This document shows positions 877-37,259 of a DNA stretch of 64,000 bases, in pieces. The notes under the pieces are model-generated. The model saw only the letters and a list, made by a program, of their open reading frames with translations. It had not been told where the DNA came from and made no database searches. The translations under genes and the position numbers were made by a program. The stretch comes from Escherichia phage vB_EcoM-BECP11. Location: sequence record MW286157.1; one strand, given 5' to 3'. The first letter of the stretch is position 1. The number at the start of each line of letters is the position of its first letter.

Positions 877-2501
<1,625 letters not shown>

Positions 2502-32186: not shown

Positions 32187-32215
32187 AGCCCCGACCGAAA
32201 GGTTGGGGCTTTTTA
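32187..32215 (+). terminator. intrinsic terminator, 10 bp stem with GAAA tetraloop
   Basis: AGCCCCGACC-GAAA-GGTTGGGGCT followed by TTTTT. Confidence 0.75.
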
Positions 32216-32741: not shown

Positions 32742-32770
32742 AGCCCCGACCAAAAGGTTGGGGCTTTTTG
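32742..32770 (+). terminator. intrinsic terminator, near-duplicate of the one at 32187-32215
   Basis: AGCCCCGACC-AAAA-GGTTGGGGCT followed by TTTTT. Confidence 0.75.
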
Positions 32771-33269: not shown

Positions 33270-33295
33270 GAGCCTATAATTTGAGGAAAACTGTT

Positions 33296-33814
33296 ATGTC
33301 TCTTTATACCGAACTGAATGAAACTTCCGAAAAATCTTTTGATGGTATCTTATCAATAATGCAAAAGCAGGTATTAGAAGAGCTTAGTGAAGCCGCAAGC
33401 AATGGGTACAAGGCTTGTCGAGTTCAAAGCCCACATCGCCGCATGTATGAACGTCCTCTTATTAATTGGCTAGAAAGCGAAGGTCTTACGGTTAAGATTT
33501 GCCCTGCTAAATTTGATGTCCCGCGTATTCTCAATATTTACTGGGATAAACCGGTTGAGAAAAGTGACACTTGGGTTGTTAATGTAAAAACATGTGATAA
33601 TGGATGCTCACTTGAGGTGTCTGCTGTAATTAAAGGCACTCATGGTGAAAAATCGTGGGGTTGGCCTGGTAAAGATAAAGAAATCGTGTTAAGTGTAAAA
33701 GCTACTAGTATTAGTACTCCTATAGCTAAAAGCATTATCACTGCCGCTGTTGAAGAAGCTGAACGAATTTGTAAAATTAAAAATAGTTTACATCTCTTAA
33801 ATAGCATGATATAA
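33296..33814 (+). CDS. hypothetical protein
   Basis: 172 aa from ATG 33296 with SD GAGGAAAA. Confidence 0.6.
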   Translation: MSLYTELNETSEKSFDGILSIMQKQVLEELSEAASNGYKACRVQSPHRRMYERPLINWLESEGLTVKICPAKFDVPRILNIYWDKPVEKSDTWVVNVKTCDNGCSLEVSAVIKGTHGEKSWGWPGKDKEIVLSVKATSISTPIAKSIITAAVEEAERICKIKNSLHLLNSMI

Positions 33815-33856
33815 TTTTTCTGTGGATTTTAATTTTAATCAACCTAAGGAAATACT

Positions 33857-34450
33857 ATGAACACACTGAAGAAAATTGTTGAGTTTATTCGCACTAAACT
33901 TGGTTCTGTTATGGCTAAAAATCTATCTGTTGAAGAACAGTATACTGCTGCAGCAGCAAAACTACTTGATAAGATTAAAGACCTAAAAACTGCTTCCATT
34001 AAATCTATTAACGAAGAAAAGCGTATTCGTGAACTTATTGTCGAAAAGAATAAGCAGGCCGAATCAAAAGAGCGCGAAATTCGCAAGCTCCTTTCTGAAG
34101 GTCAAGATGTAACAATGCATGCTAAACTCGGTTTACTATATCGTCGAACAGCTGAGCAGCTGACTACTAAAGCTGATGGTTATGCTGAAATGCGAATTGA
34201 AATCGCCAAGAAAGTAGTTGAGTTAGATGATGCTCGCCAAGAACTTGCAGTTAAATTGGAATATATCCGTGAAACTCGCGCCGCGAATGCCCTCGGAATT
34301 AGTACTGCTGATGATGTAGTTGAAATTGCAGCGCTGACTAAGGTTGATATTGAAGATACTCTTGCCCGAGTTGAAACCTTTAATGGCAATATTTCTGGGG
34401 TTGAAACTACCTCTGCCGATGTTCAGGAATATATTAATTCTCTGAAATAA
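33857..34450 (+). CDS. coiled-coil protein, unknown function
   Basis: 197 aa, largely heptad-like Lys/Glu-rich helices, SD AAGGA. Confidence 0.65.
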
Positions 34451-34456
34451 TGATAA

Positions 34457-34475
34457 GGGGCTTCGGCCCCTATTA
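34457..34475 (+). terminator. hairpin GGGGC-TTCG-GCCCC, weak terminator
   Basis: UUCG tetraloop hairpin after stop; U tract poor. Confidence 0.45.
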
Positions 34476-34498: not shown

Positions 34499-35101
34499 AT
34501 GCAAAGTGATTTCAATTCAATGTTTGAAGAATTCCAAAGACAAGTTGATGTTCCAGACCAATTATTAAATGCTCTTAAACGTATGGCAGAAGGACGTAAT
34601 TATTATTGGGGTTCTTCATATGAAACTGATGAAAATCTTTCTGGAAGATTTTCTAGAGGTAAAAAGTCTTTAATACGTCCTGGAATACTTATTAACAGTA
34701 TTGAATCAATTCATTCATTAACATGCGATTTTGACGTTGAATTTACTGATTTTGTTTCTCCTGAATGGACGGTCTGTTATTTAAACGACGATTATGATTA
34801 TCTTGGCGTTTATAGTTTAAGTGATGCATGGTTTAAACGTAATTTACAAAAGTCAAATTTATTCTATATTGATACTACTGTAAAATTTCAGGGCAAGAAA
34901 TATTTCTTTACTCTTATAGTTGATTCTGAAACGAAGCATGAAAATAAGCGTATTCTTAGTAAAAAGAATATCTTAACTATTGTTGATGATCTTTTTGATA
35001 AATTCGTAGAAAATCCCAATTTTGAAAGCGATTTATTATTAGAAAAATTTGTGAAGGAATGTAGAGAATATGTCAAAGCCATCAATGTATCTTCCAAGTA
35101 A
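34499..35101 (+). CDS. hypothetical protein (first of four with C-terminal F-x-x-E/D-C-R motif)
   Basis: 200 aa ending ...EKFVKECREYVKAINVSSK. Confidence 0.6.
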   Translation: MQSDFNSMFEEFQRQVDVPDQLLNALKRMAEGRNYYWGSSYETDENLSGRFSRGKKSLIRPGILINSIESIHSLTCDFDVEFTDFVSPEWTVCYLNDDYDYLGVYSLSDAWFKRNLQKSNLFYIDTTVKFQGKKYFFTLIVDSETKHENKRILSKKNILTIVDDLFDKFVENPNFESDLLLEKFVKECREYVKAINVSSK

Positions 35102-35462
35102 ACCGTTGAAGTATGAATTAAAGCGCCAGCTAATTTCTACTGATGTATTAATAGGTCCTGTAATAGCTGTATCATTTGTAATTCTACTGGGGGTTGGAAT
35201 AGTTATAGATGTTATGACTGATATTGAATCTAATATAATATTTGCGTCAACACTAATTCTTCCAATGATAGTTCCATTTTTATTAGTACCTGTAAATTGG
35301 GTGGGATACTGGTATCAAGGAAGACACTATCGTAAACGTGTACGTGATTGGAAAGCCCAGTGTAAAAAGATTAAAAAGGAACATCAGCTTAAACTTGCTG
35401 CACATGAATTTGATGAAATTATGAAATTTGTTAAGGAATCACGATGCAAAAGCCAAAACTAA
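35070..35462 (+). CDS. membrane protein (C-terminal FVKESRCK motif)
   Basis: 130 aa, two hydrophobic helices, overlaps previous gene. Confidence 0.55.
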   Translation: MSKPSMYLPSKPLKYELKRQLISTDVLIGPVIAVSFVILLGVGIVIDVMTDIESNIIFASTLILPMIVPFLLVPVNWVGYWYQGRHYRKRVRDWKAQCKKIKKEHQLKLAAHEFDEIMKFVKESRCKSQN

Positions 35463-35806
35463 ATAAAGTCAAATATTCTCTTCCTGAGTCATTTTTAATT
35501 TTTGCTGTGGCGTTGGCTGCAGCTCTTGCGGGTAGTCTTTTTGGATTGTTAATTGACTGTATTATTTTAAACATTGACGGCACAGTAAATATAATAGAAG
35601 TTTGGAGTGAACTTCACTATACTAAAATTATTTCATTATTTTCATTCTTTGGTACCATGTTATATTTTCATTATGATAATTTTAAAATAAATTGGCAAAG
35701 AAAAAAGGATTACAAAATACAATTAAAGGAATATAACAGCTACATGTCTTATATTGAAAAAGAATCAATGGAAGAGTTTGTGAGTGATTGTAGGAAAATT
35801 AAATGA
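35444..35806 (+). CDS. membrane protein (C-terminal FVSDCRKIK motif)
   Basis: 120 aa, hydrophobic helices, SD AAGGAA. Confidence 0.55.
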   Translation: MQKPKLNKVKYSLPESFLIFAVALAAALAGSLFGLLIDCIILNIDGTVNIIEVWSELHYTKIISLFSFFGTMLYFHYDNFKINWQRKKDYKIQLKEYNSYMSYIEKESMEEFVSDCRKIK

Positions 35807-36291
35807 TTTTAAAAACTCGCTGGTATGATTTAGATGATGGGGATGATGGCATTTCAGTTAATAGAGTTGACTGGAATGGTTGTTCCGAAGATATGAAAAA
35901 TTTGTTGATTAGGGAGTTTAGAATGGGATATCAAGCAGCTAAGCCATCTATTATAACAGATGATAAATTCGTGTGTATTCATAATGGTCGCGCTAAGTTA
36001 ACGAACGCTGATTGGTTTACAAATAAGATTATGATTCTGTGGTATATCATTAGTCTTCCTGTGTCATCATTTGTATTTTGCTTCTTTGGTGAAAGTCCAA
36101 TAGGCAGAACAGGAGATTGGATTCTTTTAATTATGCTTGTTAATATTTTGACAGCAGCAATATTATCAGGAATATGGTGCGTGTTCATTGAAATGCCATG
36201 GCGTTTACGCAGACAGCAAAAGATTTTTGATGAAAAGAAATATACTCAAAATTTAAATAACTTTATCACTGAATGCAGGAAATTAAAATGA
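35803..36291 (+). CDS. membrane protein (C-terminal FITECRKLK motif)
   Basis: 162 aa, ATGA coupling to previous gene. Confidence 0.55.
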   Translation: MILKTRWYDLDDGDDGISVNRVDWNGCSEDMKNLLIREFRMGYQAAKPSIITDDKFVCIHNGRAKLTNADWFTNKIMILWYIISLPVSSFVFCFFGESPIGRTGDWILLIMLVNILTAAILSGIWCVFIEMPWRLRRQQKIFDEKKYTQNLNNFITECRKLK

Positions 36292-36728
36292 AAACACTAT
36301 CAGCTGGTATTATCTTTATGACAGAAGATAAAGATTTATTTATGGGTCGGGTTACTGGTTCTCGTAAGCCTGGAATGATGGCACATCGTTGGGATATTCC
36401 AAAGGGCCGTGTAGAAAGTTCTGATTTGAATGCACTGGAAGCTGCAAAAAGAGAATGCTTAGAAGAGACCGGTTTTAGCAATTATAATCCAGACCTTCTA
36501 GAAGACCTAGGTGTATTTAAATATTCTAGTAATAAAGACTTACAGTTATTTTATTATACGATTCCAGTAGAGCATGAGATGTTCAGAAATTGCCATTGCG
36601 AGTCTTATTTTGAAAATAAAGATGGCGTTATGATTCCAGAGATGGATGCTTTTGCTCTTATTCCTCGTACTCAGTGGCAATATGTGATGGGTCCTTCACT
36701 TTACCGAATAATGAACAGCCTCTTTTAA
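36288..36728 (+). CDS. nudE: Nudix hydrolase NudE
   Basis: Nudix box GRVESSDLNALEAAKRECLEETGF; ATGA-coupled start at 36288 (an in-frame ATG 15 nt upstream would give 151 aa). Confidence 0.8.
   Translation: MKTLSAGIIFMTEDKDLFMGRVTGSRKPGMMAHRWDIPKGRVESSDLNALEAAKRECLEETGFSNYNPDLLEDLGVFKYSSNKDLQLFYYTIPVEHEMFRNCHCESYFENKDGVMIPEMDAFALIPRTQWQYVMGPSLYRIMNSLF

Positions 36729-37259
<531 letters not shown>

What the first reader, a model, noticed from the sequence alone, without database searches (positions are those of the whole stretch)
34499..36291. Four tandem, translationally coupled genes sharing a C-terminal F-[VI]-x-[ED]-[CS]-R motif
The proteins end FVKECREY, FVKESRCK, FVSDCRKIK and FITECRKLK. 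The last three have N-terminal transmembrane helices and the first is soluble. This looks like a duplicated membrane-associated module of unknown function just upstream of nudE and lysozyme.
Basis: seen in the sequence. Interest (0 to 1): 0.5.

Follow-up and report, generated by a model that had tools for sequence, protein, structure and literature searches.

The report
Shared tail motif in T4 e.2–e.5
Four neighbouring early genes of a T4-like phage (e.5, e.4, e.3, e.2) really do end in the same short helical peptide, which is kept across many T4-like phage genera on otherwise unrelated proteins that always follow a gene (e.6) resembling the bacterial membrane-repair protein PspA/Vipp1, so it is probably a shared docking tag of a phage membrane module whose function nobody has tested.

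Summary
The window is a Tequatrovirus, and the four ORFs are T4 e.5, e.4, e.3 and e.2, with overlaps of 32, 19 and 4 nt.

- **Specificity.** Its only other six-frame match in the 64 kb is a chance one, in a glutaredoxin.
- **Conservation.** In nine further phage lineages, 1-5 ORFs downstream of e.6 end in Φ-x-x-[FW]-[IV]-x-x-[C/S/M/V/I]-[RK]: 35 of 99 ORFs there against 0 of 185 elsewhere (p≈1e-18). RB43 also has it; Serratia and Morganella phages carry diverged forms.
- **Level of selection.** Codons vary synonymously, so the peptide is selected. Its purine-rich codons often double as the next gene's ribosome-binding site.
- **Homology.** Only e.3 and e.4 look paralogous beyond the tail. e.5 and e.2 share about 13-16 residues with the others.
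- **Architecture.** e.5 is predicted soluble. e.4, e.3 and e.2 are predicted two-helix inner-membrane proteins with cytoplasmic tails.
- **Neighbour.** e.6 is probably PspA/Vipp1-like by profile and fold.

Best explanation, which is inferred: the tail is a docking helix in a phage Psp-like membrane module. In T4 the proteins are expressed and dispensable in the laboratory. No partner has been shown.

The parts
33787..33815 (+). Sigma-70-type promoter-like site (TTTACA-17-TATAAT with TG) upstream of e.6; candidate early promoter of the e.6-e.2 unit
   Evidence: 11 of 12 consensus matches. This is a consensus match only. Early RNA class of the T4 orthologues.
33857..34450 (+). e.6 (197 aa): conserved all-helical protein, probably PspA/Vipp1 (ESCRT-III-like); heads the gene array. 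Its own C-terminus, VQEYINSLK, has the same spacing pattern as the tails
34456..34471 (+). GGGGC-UUCG-GCCCC hairpin between e.6 and e.5, with no T-run after it on the + strand
34499..35101 (+). e.5 (200 aa), no hydrophobic segment. First tail-bearing gene; member of a family found directly after e.6 in 12 of the 13 lineages sampled (in the Morganella phage a thymidylate synthase gene lies between)
   Evidence: invariant columns N96, F184, C188, R189; PF26876 Phage_T4_Y06P.
35048..35065 (+). Tail motif of e.5: F-V-K-E-C-R (TTT GTG AAG GAA TGT AGA). The e.4 ATG lies 5 nt downstream
35070..35462 (+). e.4 (130 aa): predicted N-in, two membrane helices (about aa 31-49 and 56-74), basic cytoplasmic C-terminal tail
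   Evidence: PF26873 Phage_T4_Y06O.
35427..35444 (+). Tail motif of e.4: F-V-K-E-S-R. AAGGAA within it lies 6 nt upstream of the e.3 ATG
35444..35806 (+). e.3 (120 aa): predicted two membrane helices (aa 19-37 clear, about 59-77 weaker) and a cytoplasmic tail; probable paralogue of e.4
35777..35794 (+). Tail motif of e.3: F-V-S-D-C-R. The following AGG AAA serves as the Shine-Dalgarno-like sequence for e.2
35803..36291 (+). e.2 (162 aa): 75-aa soluble N-terminal part, two membrane helices (aa 76-94 and 106-124), cytoplasmic tail. Intact here but broken in the T4 reference sequence
   Evidence: PF26896 Phage_T4_Y06M.
36262..36279 (+). Tail motif of e.2: F-I-T-E-C-R
36288..36728 (+). nudE (Nudix hydrolase), downstream neighbour overlapping e.2 (ATGA). 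Context only
36765..37259 (+). e (T4 lysozyme). Context only

Best explanation
**What was shown**
- The four genes are the T4 early genes e.5, e.4, e.3 and e.2. They lie directly downstream of e.6, with no strong promoter-like site between them.
- Each product ends in a short helix of the form [S/N/D]-x-Φ-x-x-F-[IV]-x-x-C-[RK], with hydrophobic residues at i, i+3, i+4 and i+7. (The helix itself is a low-confidence AF2 call for e.5 and is read from the spacing pattern for the other three.)
- This peptide is selected at the protein level. It is carried by bodies that are otherwise mostly unrelated: a soluble protein (e.5) and predicted two-helix inner-membrane hairpins (e.4, e.3, e.2).
- The positive-inside rule places the tails of the membrane proteins in the cytoplasm.

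**What is inferred**
- The tail is a common docking helix. Through it a variable set of proteins engages one shared partner at the cytoplasmic face of the inner membrane.
- The best candidate partner is e.6, a predicted PspA/Vipp1-like protein with an N-terminal amphipathic helix and a long helical hairpin.
- On this view the e.6-e.2 unit is a phage-borne analogue of bacterial Psp/Lia systems, in which small inner-membrane proteins recruit or regulate a PspA-type membrane-stabilising effector through a cytoplasmic C-terminal segment. It would act early in infection to preserve or reshape the host inner membrane.
- e.3 and e.4 arose by duplication. The tails on e.5 and e.2 reflect either very old common ancestry or transfer of the tail.
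For: **The motif is real and specific**
- genome-wide, the strict form occurs only in this cluster.

**Conservation on diverged and unrelated bodies**
- In Mosig-, Gapriver-, Dhaka-, Kanagawa-, Jiaoda-, Ishiguro-, Moon-, Kagamiyama- and Biquartavirus, 1-5 ORFs downstream of e.6 carry it.
- 35 of 99 ORFs downstream of e.6 have it against 0 of 185 elsewhere, Fisher p=9e-19.
- Columns that were not used for selection are also conserved: position -3 is L/I/V/M/F in 26 of 34, and position -2 is E/D/N in 25 of 34.
- RB43 has LEKFIHSCKK. Serratia and Morganella phages carry diverged forms.
- In the e.5 family, the only invariant residues are N96, F184, C188 and R189.

**Peptide-level selection**
- Arg uses six codons, Phe two and Cys two. 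Three tail genes have no coupled downstream start yet keep the motif.

**No homology beyond the tail, except e.3/e.4**
-.

**Topology**
- N-in, C-in by the positive-inside rule.

**e.6 as PspA/Vipp1-like**
-.
- e.6 has an e.5-type gene downstream in all 13 genus-level lineages sampled, immediately after it in 12; in the Morganella phage a thymidylate synthase gene intervenes.
- e.6's own conserved C-terminus (VQEYINSLK) has the same Φxx[Y]Φxx[L]K spacing.

**Precedent and expression**
- The cytoplasmic C-terminal domain of PspC binds PspA (PMC5596341). Small membrane partners are typical of PSP systems (PMC11237479).
- All five T4 proteins are expressed from early RNA (PMC9697503 supplements).
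Against: - No interaction was tested or modelled.
- The e.5 model failed (pLDDT 37), so it is unknown whether its tail is exposed.
- The e.6-PspA link is moderate, not strong:
  - Pfam PspA_IM30 does not hit any of 30 family members.
  - A profile search of 1.84 billion representatives found only 46 e.6-like proteins and no PspA.
  - hhalign against E. coli PspA alone is not significant.
  - The best PDB profile E-value (5e-5) is only about 50-fold better than coiled-coil noise.
- The four remotest e.6-like proteins examined have no tail-bearing neighbours.
- e.4 orthologues replace the Cys by S, I, V or M, so the Cys is not chemically essential.
- Knock-down of e.2 to e.6 gives no fitness defect in the laboratory. 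The T4 reference strain carries a broken e.2.
- Part of the conservation at the two 'x' positions (K-E) and at R-K can be explained by the overlapping ribosome-binding site of the next gene.
Confidence: 0.4

Rival explanations
1. The tail is a self-association helix. The tail-bearing proteins bundle with one another, as homo- or hetero-oligomers, to build a membrane complex in which e.5 is the peripheral subunit. e.6 is only a neighbour.
For: - The i, i+3, i+4, i+7 hydrophobic pattern suits helix-helix packing.
- Overlapping genes suggest coupled, stoichiometric synthesis.
- e.3 and e.4 share the whole 45-residue cytoplasmic segment.
Against: - Copy number ranges from 1 (Biquartavirus, RB43) to 5, so hetero-oligomers cannot be obligatory.
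- A helix of about 11 residues is short for a stable bundle.
- This does not explain why the e.5 type always accompanies e.6.
Confidence: 0.2
2. The tail addresses a host protein. It is either a docking site on a conserved host membrane or cytoplasmic factor, or a C-terminal recognition tag for a host protease (FtsH, ClpXP or Lon) that times the removal of these early proteins.
For: - The tails are cytoplasmic, C-terminal and end in basic residues.
- The proteins fall into different temporal protein classes despite sharing an early RNA class.
- The host range of the phages carrying the motif covers enterobacteria and Aeromonas.
Against: - No similarity to a known degradation tag was tested or found.
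- In e.5-type proteins the motif lies 4-27 residues from the end (4-15 in the ten aligned families; 27 in RB43), not at it.
- An amphipathic helix with an invariant Phe/Ile/Cys face looks more like a specific binding interface than a degradation tag.
Confidence: 0.12
3. The similarity is inherited only. All are very old paralogues and the tail is simply the slowest-evolving remnant, for example a structural cap, with no shared partner.
For: - e.3 and e.4 are probable paralogues.
- Tandem arrays in T4-like phages often arise by duplication. A second tandem family with its own C-terminal signature sits next to this one in other genera.
Against: - e.5 (soluble, about 200 aa), e.2 (with an N-terminal soluble part) and several small soluble tail-bearers (Kan_D, Moo_D, Ish_C, Jia_E) have unrelated architectures.
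- A remnant under no common constraint would not stay the most conserved part of every family at 14-30% identity.
Confidence: 0.1
4. The motif is a by-product of nucleotide-level signals at gene junctions: the Shine-Dalgarno sequence and start codon of the next overlapping gene, an RNA structure, or a recombination linker.
For: - In 27 of 34 cases the next ATG lies between -6 and +29 nt from the motif end.
- AAG GAA, AAG GAG, AGG AAA and AGA supply AAGGA/GGAG-like sites.
Against: - The conserved residues F, I/V and C are not purine-rich.
- All conserved positions use several synonymous codons.
- The distance to the stop and to the next start varies.
- Mos_D, Ish_C and Moo_D keep the motif without a coupled downstream start.
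- In e.5-type genes the ribosome-binding site of the next gene often lies well downstream of the motif.
Confidence: 0.05

Closest known systems
Enterobacterial Psp system (PspA with the inner-membrane proteins PspB and PspC)
   Same: - A PspA-type helical effector is encoded next to small inner-membrane proteins.
- The cytoplasmic C-terminal domain of PspC binds PspA (PMC5596341).
- Here e.6 is PspA/Vipp1-like. e.4, e.3 and e.2 are small membrane hairpins with cytoplasmic C-terminal helices.
   Different: - No sequence similarity of e.4, e.3 or e.2 to PspB or PspC (no Pfam or NCBIfam hit).
- No PspF-like regulator is present.
- The system is phage-encoded.
- Several partners plus a soluble one all carry the same short tail, which is not known for PspB or PspC.
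- No interaction has been shown.
Bacillus Lia system and other PSP partner sets (LiaH with the small membrane protein LiaI; mycobacterial PspA with PspM)
   Same: A PspA homologue is paired with lineage-specific small transmembrane partners, which the PSP survey describes as a recurrent theme (PMC11237479).
   Different: - The LiaI-LiaF-TM domain has four membrane helices, and no similarity to it was detected here.
- In the term search of that survey, 'virus' and 'bacteriophage' gave no hit and 'viral' two hits I did not read.
ESCRT-III C-terminal helices and MIM-type tails (from my own knowledge, not tested here)
   Same: [quoted passage not shown]
- e.6 ends in a conserved helix, VQEYINSLK, with the same spacing as the e.5-e.2 tails.
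   Different: - No MIT-domain or Vps4-like partner is present nearby.
- The resemblance rests on a pattern of about 9 residues with a background rate of about 1%.
Shared C-terminal clamp-binding tails of T4 replication and late-transcription proteins (from my own knowledge)
   Same: Conceptually the same design: several unrelated T4 proteins carry a similar short C-terminal peptide that docks on one hub, the gp45 clamp.
   Different: - The sequence differs and the cellular location differs (DNA rather than membrane).
- This is an analogy of design only.
Pfam families Phage_T4_Y06P (e.5), Phage_T4_Y06O (e.4), Phage_T4_Y06M (e.2); PHROGs 2607, 2604, 2330, 2203
   Same: The window proteins are members of these families.
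   Different: These are separate families named after T4 ORFs, with no function attached. Their separate listing shows that the shared tail has not been used to link them.

Membership tests
T4 e.5 / e.4 / e.3 / e.2 orthologue groups (PHROGs 2607, 2604, 2330, 2203; Pfam PF26876, PF26873, PF26896) | Full-length profile match and conserved position between e.6 and nudE | tested here: met
   PHROG E-values 1e-108, 4e-69, 2e-60 and 6e-78. 93-100% identity to T4-like records with the same gene order. Precomputed Pfam names.
PspA/IM30/Vipp1 family (ESCRT-III superfamily), for e.6 | N-terminal amphipathic helix followed by a long alpha1-alpha2/3 hairpin and shorter C-terminal helices | tested here: met
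   AF2 model: helices 2-22, 25-80, 86-145, 151-160 and 186-196; pLDDT 84-97 over the hairpin.
PspA/IM30/Vipp1 family (ESCRT-III superfamily), for e.6 | Significant sequence or fold match to family members | tested here: inconclusive
   For: a profile of 44 e.6 relatives against PDB sequences gives Vipp1/PspA as the top 8 hits, E=5e-5 to 2e-3, in register 1-146 to 1-147. The Foldseek top 8 are Vipp1 at probability about 1.0. A phage protein annotated PspA/IM30 ranks 8th in BFVD.

PspA/IM30/Vipp1 family (ESCRT-III superfamily), for e.6 | Oligomeric rings or rods, membrane binding, protection of the proton-motive force | not testable with these tools
   Needs biochemistry or electron microscopy.
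PspB / PspC / LiaI-type membrane partners, for e.4, e.3 and e.2 | Match to the PspB, PspC or LiaI-LiaF-TM profiles | tested here: not met
   No such Pfam or NCBIfam hit at E<=1. Only sub-threshold DUF5418 and Bfi1 hits for e.4.
PspB / PspC / LiaI-type membrane partners, for e.4, e.3 and e.2 | Small inner-membrane protein whose cytoplasmic C-terminal segment binds the PspA-type protein | not testable with these tools
   Topology prediction fits: N-in and C-in, with 9-15 Lys/Arg in the C-terminal tails of e.4 and e.2. Binding was not tested.
Short linear docking motif | Short conserved peptide on otherwise non-homologous proteins, conserved at the protein level rather than the nucleotide level | tested here: met
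Short linear docking motif | An identified binding partner | not testable with these tools
   No complex prediction or experiment was available.
   e.4 versus e.3: E=1.8e-6 over 45 columns with the tail, 3e-3 over 32 columns without it. All other pairs align over only 13-16 tail columns; the bodies give E>0.1. BLASTP of the bodies was not significant within a genome.

The most novel reading that the evidence does not exclude
T4-like phages encode their own PspA/ESCRT-III-type membrane-remodelling protein (e.6) together with a variable set of adaptors (e.5-type soluble proteins and e.4/e.3/e.2-type membrane anchors).

All the adaptors carry one conserved C-terminal helix that mimics e.6's own C-terminal helix. 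It would dock in the same groove, thereby anchoring, nucleating or de-repressing e.6 polymers on the host inner membrane. Possible roles are resealing after DNA injection, holding the proton-motive force during lysis inhibition, or blunting membrane-targeting abortive-infection effectors.
Probability: 0.25. Interest if true: 0.8.

Novelty: new variant of a known kind. Interest (0 to 1): 0.58.

Why it matters
**What is new.** About half of the genes of T4, the best-studied phage, still have no function. e.2 to e.6 are listed as 'Unknown' in a 2025 genome-wide screen.

This analysis links five of them into one unit. The link rests on a shared, deeply conserved tail and a PspA/Vipp1-like neighbour. 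Together they give a concrete, cheap-to-test hypothesis: tail-dependent binding and membrane recruitment.

**Why it would matter if correct.** It would be a phage-encoded counterpart of the bacterial 'phage shock' membrane-protection system, built on a hub-and-tagged-adaptor design. That would bear on how lytic phages keep the host membrane energised until lysis. It could also bear on how they resist defence systems that kill by membrane damage.

**Limits.** The partner and the function are inferred only. The genes are dispensable under laboratory conditions.

Tried and rejected
**Family libraries.** Pfam, NCBIfam and PADLOC scans of the four proteins and e.6 gave nothing above threshold. PHROGs gave only 'unknown function' families.

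**Homologue searches.** A single-sequence search with e.3 reached only relatives at 69% identity or more. The e.5-family profile search returned few lineages.

**Structure.**
- AF2 of e.5 on the resulting 18-sequence alignment failed (pLDDT 37), so no fold search was possible for it.
- Sequence and profile searches of e.5 against PDB found nothing.
- The afdb50 library was unavailable.

**e.6 against PspA.** The e.6 profile against E. coli PspA alone was not significant.

**Remote contexts.** The gene neighbourhoods of the four remotest e.6-like proteins showed no tail-bearing neighbours.

**Literature.** Gene names such as 'e.5' gave only noise. The T4 genome review is not held.

**Rejected readings.**
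- Chance.
- A nucleotide-level cause as the main driver.
- Cleavage by the T4 prohead protease at I/L-x-E: the Glu is not conserved outside enterobacterial lineages.
- A metal or disulphide role for the Cys as essential: it is replaced by S, I, V or M in e.4 orthologues.
- The FINDSR match in the glutaredoxin-like ORF and FIETVK in gp59 as family members: both are chance-level loose matches.
- The 'sulfurtransferase' label on some database homologues has no support from any profile.
Full report
**1. What is there**

The region is 99% identical to Tequatrovirus (T4-like) genomes. By position and sequence the four ORFs are the T4 genes e.5, e.4, e.3 and e.2:

| Gene | Window coordinates | Length |
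|---|---|---|
| e.5 | 34499-35101 | 200 aa |
| e.4 | 35070-35462 | 130 aa |
| e.3 | 35444-35806 | 120 aa |
| e.2 | 35803-36291 | 162 aa |

- Upstream lies e.6 (33857-34450). Downstream lie nudE and the e lysozyme.
- Successive genes overlap by 32, 19 and 4 nt. e.2 overlaps nudE by ATGA.
- A strong promoter-like site lies upstream of e.6 (33787-33815). A UUCG hairpin with no following T-run separates e.6 from e.5. No comparably strong promoter-like site lies between the four genes: the 10-of-12 matches inside them are at the shuffle expectation.

**2. Is the motif more than chance?**

Yes.
- In the six-frame translation of all 64 kb, F[VI]x[ED][CS]R occurs five times. Four are these genes. The fifth sits inside a CxxC glutaredoxin-like ORF, far from its end.
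- A loosened form, [FW][VI]xx[CMVIS][RK] in the last 25 residues, is found in 4 of 102 window genes, exactly these four. Shuffling predicts 1.6 hits per 284 proteins.
- Adding the parts of the T4 genome not covered by the window, F[VI]xxC[RK] near a C-terminus occurs only in e.5, e.3 and e.2. Loose matches in real genes (nrdH, gp59) are at the chance level.

**3. Conservation elsewhere**

e.4 and e.5 have relatives at about 50% identity in Mosigvirus and at 14-30% in Gaprivervirus. The motif persists there (FIMECR, FVKEIR, FIKECR; FIAECR, FIKEVR, FIKECK) although little else does.

I used the well-conserved e.6 as an anchor (1106 phage records) and fetched the downstream region from eleven more genus-level lineages.

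- In Dhaka-, Kanagawa-, Jiaoda-, Ishiguro-, Moon-, Kagamiyama- and Biquartavirus, 1-5 ORFs after e.6 end in the generalised motif.
- The first of these is always a soluble protein of 156-270 aa. Most of the others are two-helix membrane proteins, and a few are small soluble proteins.
- Over the ten loci, 35 of 99 ORFs within 5 kb downstream of e.6 carry the motif against 0 of 185 elsewhere (Fisher p=9e-19).
- Aligning the 34 tails on the Phe shows that columns not used for selection are also conserved: position -3 is L/I/V/M/F in 26 of 34, and position -2 is acidic or Asn in 25 of 34.
The core is Φ-x-x-F-[IV]-x-x-C-[RK].
- RB43 carries LEKFIHSCKK. Serratia and Morganella phages carry diverged forms: IIHQAR and AIHEAR, and FVISCY and FVRDCF.
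- In the e.5 family alignment the only invariant residues are N96, F184, C188 and R189.
- The gene neighbourhoods of the four remotest e.6-like proteins, taken from metagenomes, show no such tails.

**4. Protein signal or nucleotide signal?**

- Every conserved position uses several synonymous codons: Phe TTT 22 / TTC 10, Cys TGT 16 / TGC 10, Arg six codons. Selection therefore acts on the peptide.
- In 27 of 34 cases the next gene's ATG lies between -6 and +29 nt from the motif end.
- The frequent K-E (AAG GAA or AAG GAG) and R-K (AGG AAA) codons supply the Shine-Dalgarno sequence of the next gene.
- Dual coding probably shapes the variable positions, but it cannot explain F, I/V and C.
- Three tail genes lack a coupled downstream start and still keep the motif.

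**5. Are the four genes duplicates?**

- With the tails removed, BLASTP links orthologues across genera but no two families within a genome.
- Profile-profile comparison joins the e.5 family of Tequatro- and Mosigvirus to the first-position proteins of other genera (E=3e-5 without the tail).
- It aligns e.4 with e.3 over the whole 45-residue cytoplasmic segment after the second membrane helix (E=1.8e-6 with the tail, 3e-3 without).
- All other family pairs align only over 13-16 tail columns.
- e.3 and e.4 are thus probable paralogues. e.5 and e.2 share only the tail. Databases keep the four in separate families.

**6. Architecture**

- e.5 has no hydrophobic segment.
- e.4 has helices at about aa 31-49 and 56-74, with a 6-residue loop lacking Lys/Arg and 15 Lys/Arg in its 56-residue C-terminal part.
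- e.2 has a 75-residue soluble N-terminal part, helices at 76-94 and 106-124, and 9 Lys/Arg in its tail.
- e.3 has one clear and one weaker helix, and its orthologues have two.
- The positive-inside rule puts both ends of these proteins, and therefore the tails, in the cytoplasm. This is a prediction.
- The hydrophobic residues of the tail fall at i, i+3, i+4 and i+7, one face of a helix. The otherwise poor e.5 model also makes residues 177-197 helical.

**7. The neighbour e.6**

- The AF2 model (pLDDT 77.5) has an N-terminal helix (2-22), a long hairpin (25-80 and 86-145) and shorter C-terminal helices.
- Foldseek against the PDB returns Vipp1 structures as the eight best hits (probability about 1.0, E from 2e-3), followed by archaeal CdvB2 and E. 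coli PspA.
- A profile of 30 close relatives gave only weak, in-register Vipp1 hits.
- After adding distant family members found in a search of 1.84 billion representatives, the profile's eight best PDB matches are all Vipp1/PspA, at E=5e-5 to 2e-3, aligned 1-146 to 1-147.
- Against this:
  - Pfam's PspA model hits none of 30 members.
  - The large search found no PspA.
  - hhalign against E. coli PspA alone is not significant.
- I rate e.6 as PspA/Vipp1-like at about 0.75.
- Its own conserved C-terminus (VQEYINSLK, stop) has the same spacing as the tails. This holds in 23 of 44 family members, against 3 of 279 other genes. I treat this as a lead, not a result.

**8. What is known experimentally**

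- In T4, e.2 to e.6 are all in the early RNA class and all were detected as proteins (PMC9697503, supplementary files 4 and 6).
- A genome-wide knock-down screen lists their function as unknown and scores all five as not contributing to fitness in the laboratory (PMC11879866, supplementary file 15).
- The T4 reference sequence has e.2 split into three ORFs. The gene is intact in the window and in 539 of 620 phage records.
- In bacterial Psp systems the cytoplasmic C-terminal domain of the small membrane protein PspC binds PspA (PMC5596341).
- A broad survey lists small membrane partners as typical. A term search of its text found no occurrence of 'virus' or 'bacteriophage'; 'viral' occurs twice and I did not read those passages (PMC11237479).

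**9. Interpretation**

Shown:
- a specific, protein-level C-terminal motif, conserved across genera on mostly unrelated bodies;
- its confinement to the gene array that follows e.6;
- expression of the T4 orthologues.

Predicted, not shown: the cytoplasmic location of the tails (positive-inside rule).

Inferred:
- The tail is a docking helix for a shared partner.
- That partner is most likely e.6.
- The unit works like a Psp/Lia system.

Confidence is 0.4 for the docking-helix and e.6-module reading taken together. The rivals and their confidences are:

| Rival | Confidence |
|---|---|
| Self-association of the tail-bearers | 0.2 |
| A host partner or protease tag | 0.12 |
| Mere inheritance | 0.1 |
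| Junction signals | 0.05 |

**10. Novelty and score**

- The genes themselves are known, expressed, unannotated T4 ORFs.
- I found no description of the shared tail, its breadth, or the PspA-like nature of e.6. The literature tools held little on these genes.
- I class the finding as a new variant of a known kind: a Psp-like effector with partners, here phage-encoded and using a common tail tag.
- Interest is 0.58. It is a testable lead in a model phage, but the mechanism is unproven and the genes are dispensable in the laboratory.

Noticed in passing
window 33857-34450 (+): e.6, annotated in databases as 'hypothetical' or 'host specificity protein', is predicted to be a PspA/Vipp1 (ESCRT-III-like) protein. 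It is conserved in about 1100 phage records. Only 46 cluster representatives were found among 1.84 billion.
   Followed up: yes
L002 4781-5575; L003 4691-5951; L004 6522-7766; L005 6710-8315; L008 7078-7846; L011 6931-7745; L013 1963-2518: A second tandem family of 2-6 small soluble genes, all ending in W-[VI]-S-S-S-x-x-C (or W-x-[SP]-S-S-C). In other genera it sits directly after the e.3-type gene. It is absent from this position in the window.
   Followed up: no
L001 (T4 reference) 1973-2461, minus strand, compared with window 35803-36291: The T4 reference genome has e.2 broken into three ORFs (102, 30 and 51 aa). The last piece still ends NNFITECRKLK. The gene is intact in the window and in 539 of 620 phage records.
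   Followed up: partly
database homologues of e.3 and e.5 (for example P0002, P0007; phages ECML-363 and Killian): Some GenBank records call these proteins 'sulfurtransferase', and one calls an e.3 homologue 'DNA primase'. No profile library supports this. It looks like propagated misannotation.
   Followed up: partly
window 34456-34471 (+): A GGGGC-UUCG-GCCCC tetraloop hairpin lies in the 48-nt gap between e.6 and e.5, with no T-run after it. It may be an RNA stability or processing element rather than a terminator.
   Followed up: no
window 32187-32210 and 32742-32765 (+): Two nearly identical terminator-like hairpins (AGCCCCGACC-[GA]AAA-GGTTGGGGCT followed by TTTT) lie 555 nt apart, upstream of the e.8 homologue.
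   Followed up: no
window 33281-33814 (+): The slot of T4 e.7 (111 aa) is occupied by a different 177-aa ORF (PHROG 6869). This position of the array is variable between close relatives.
   Followed up: no
L024 30785-31033, minus strand (T4 rIII): The lysis-inhibition protein RIII ends VRHFVVTLK-stop. This fits the same relaxed Φxx[F/Y]Φxx[L]K pattern as the e.6 C-terminus. It is one of only three such matches outside the cluster and may be chance.
   Followed up: no
L010 5628-6548; L011 5652-6170 and 6167-6745: In RB43 and Serratia phage WSPA, the e.5-position proteins continue after the diverged motif with a further conserved stretch ([KR]-x-V-[ML]-x-[DE]-K-Y-[DN]-P-x-[LI]-x-[YF]-T-[KR]-[IL]). 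Serratia has two tandem copies.
   Followed up: no
window 36273-36291: The start of nudE is ambiguous. The ATG at 36273, used in the T4 annotation, gives a 19-nt overlap with e.2. The ATG at 36288 gives an ATGA overlap and has the AGGAAA of the e.2 tail 7 nt upstream.
   Followed up: no
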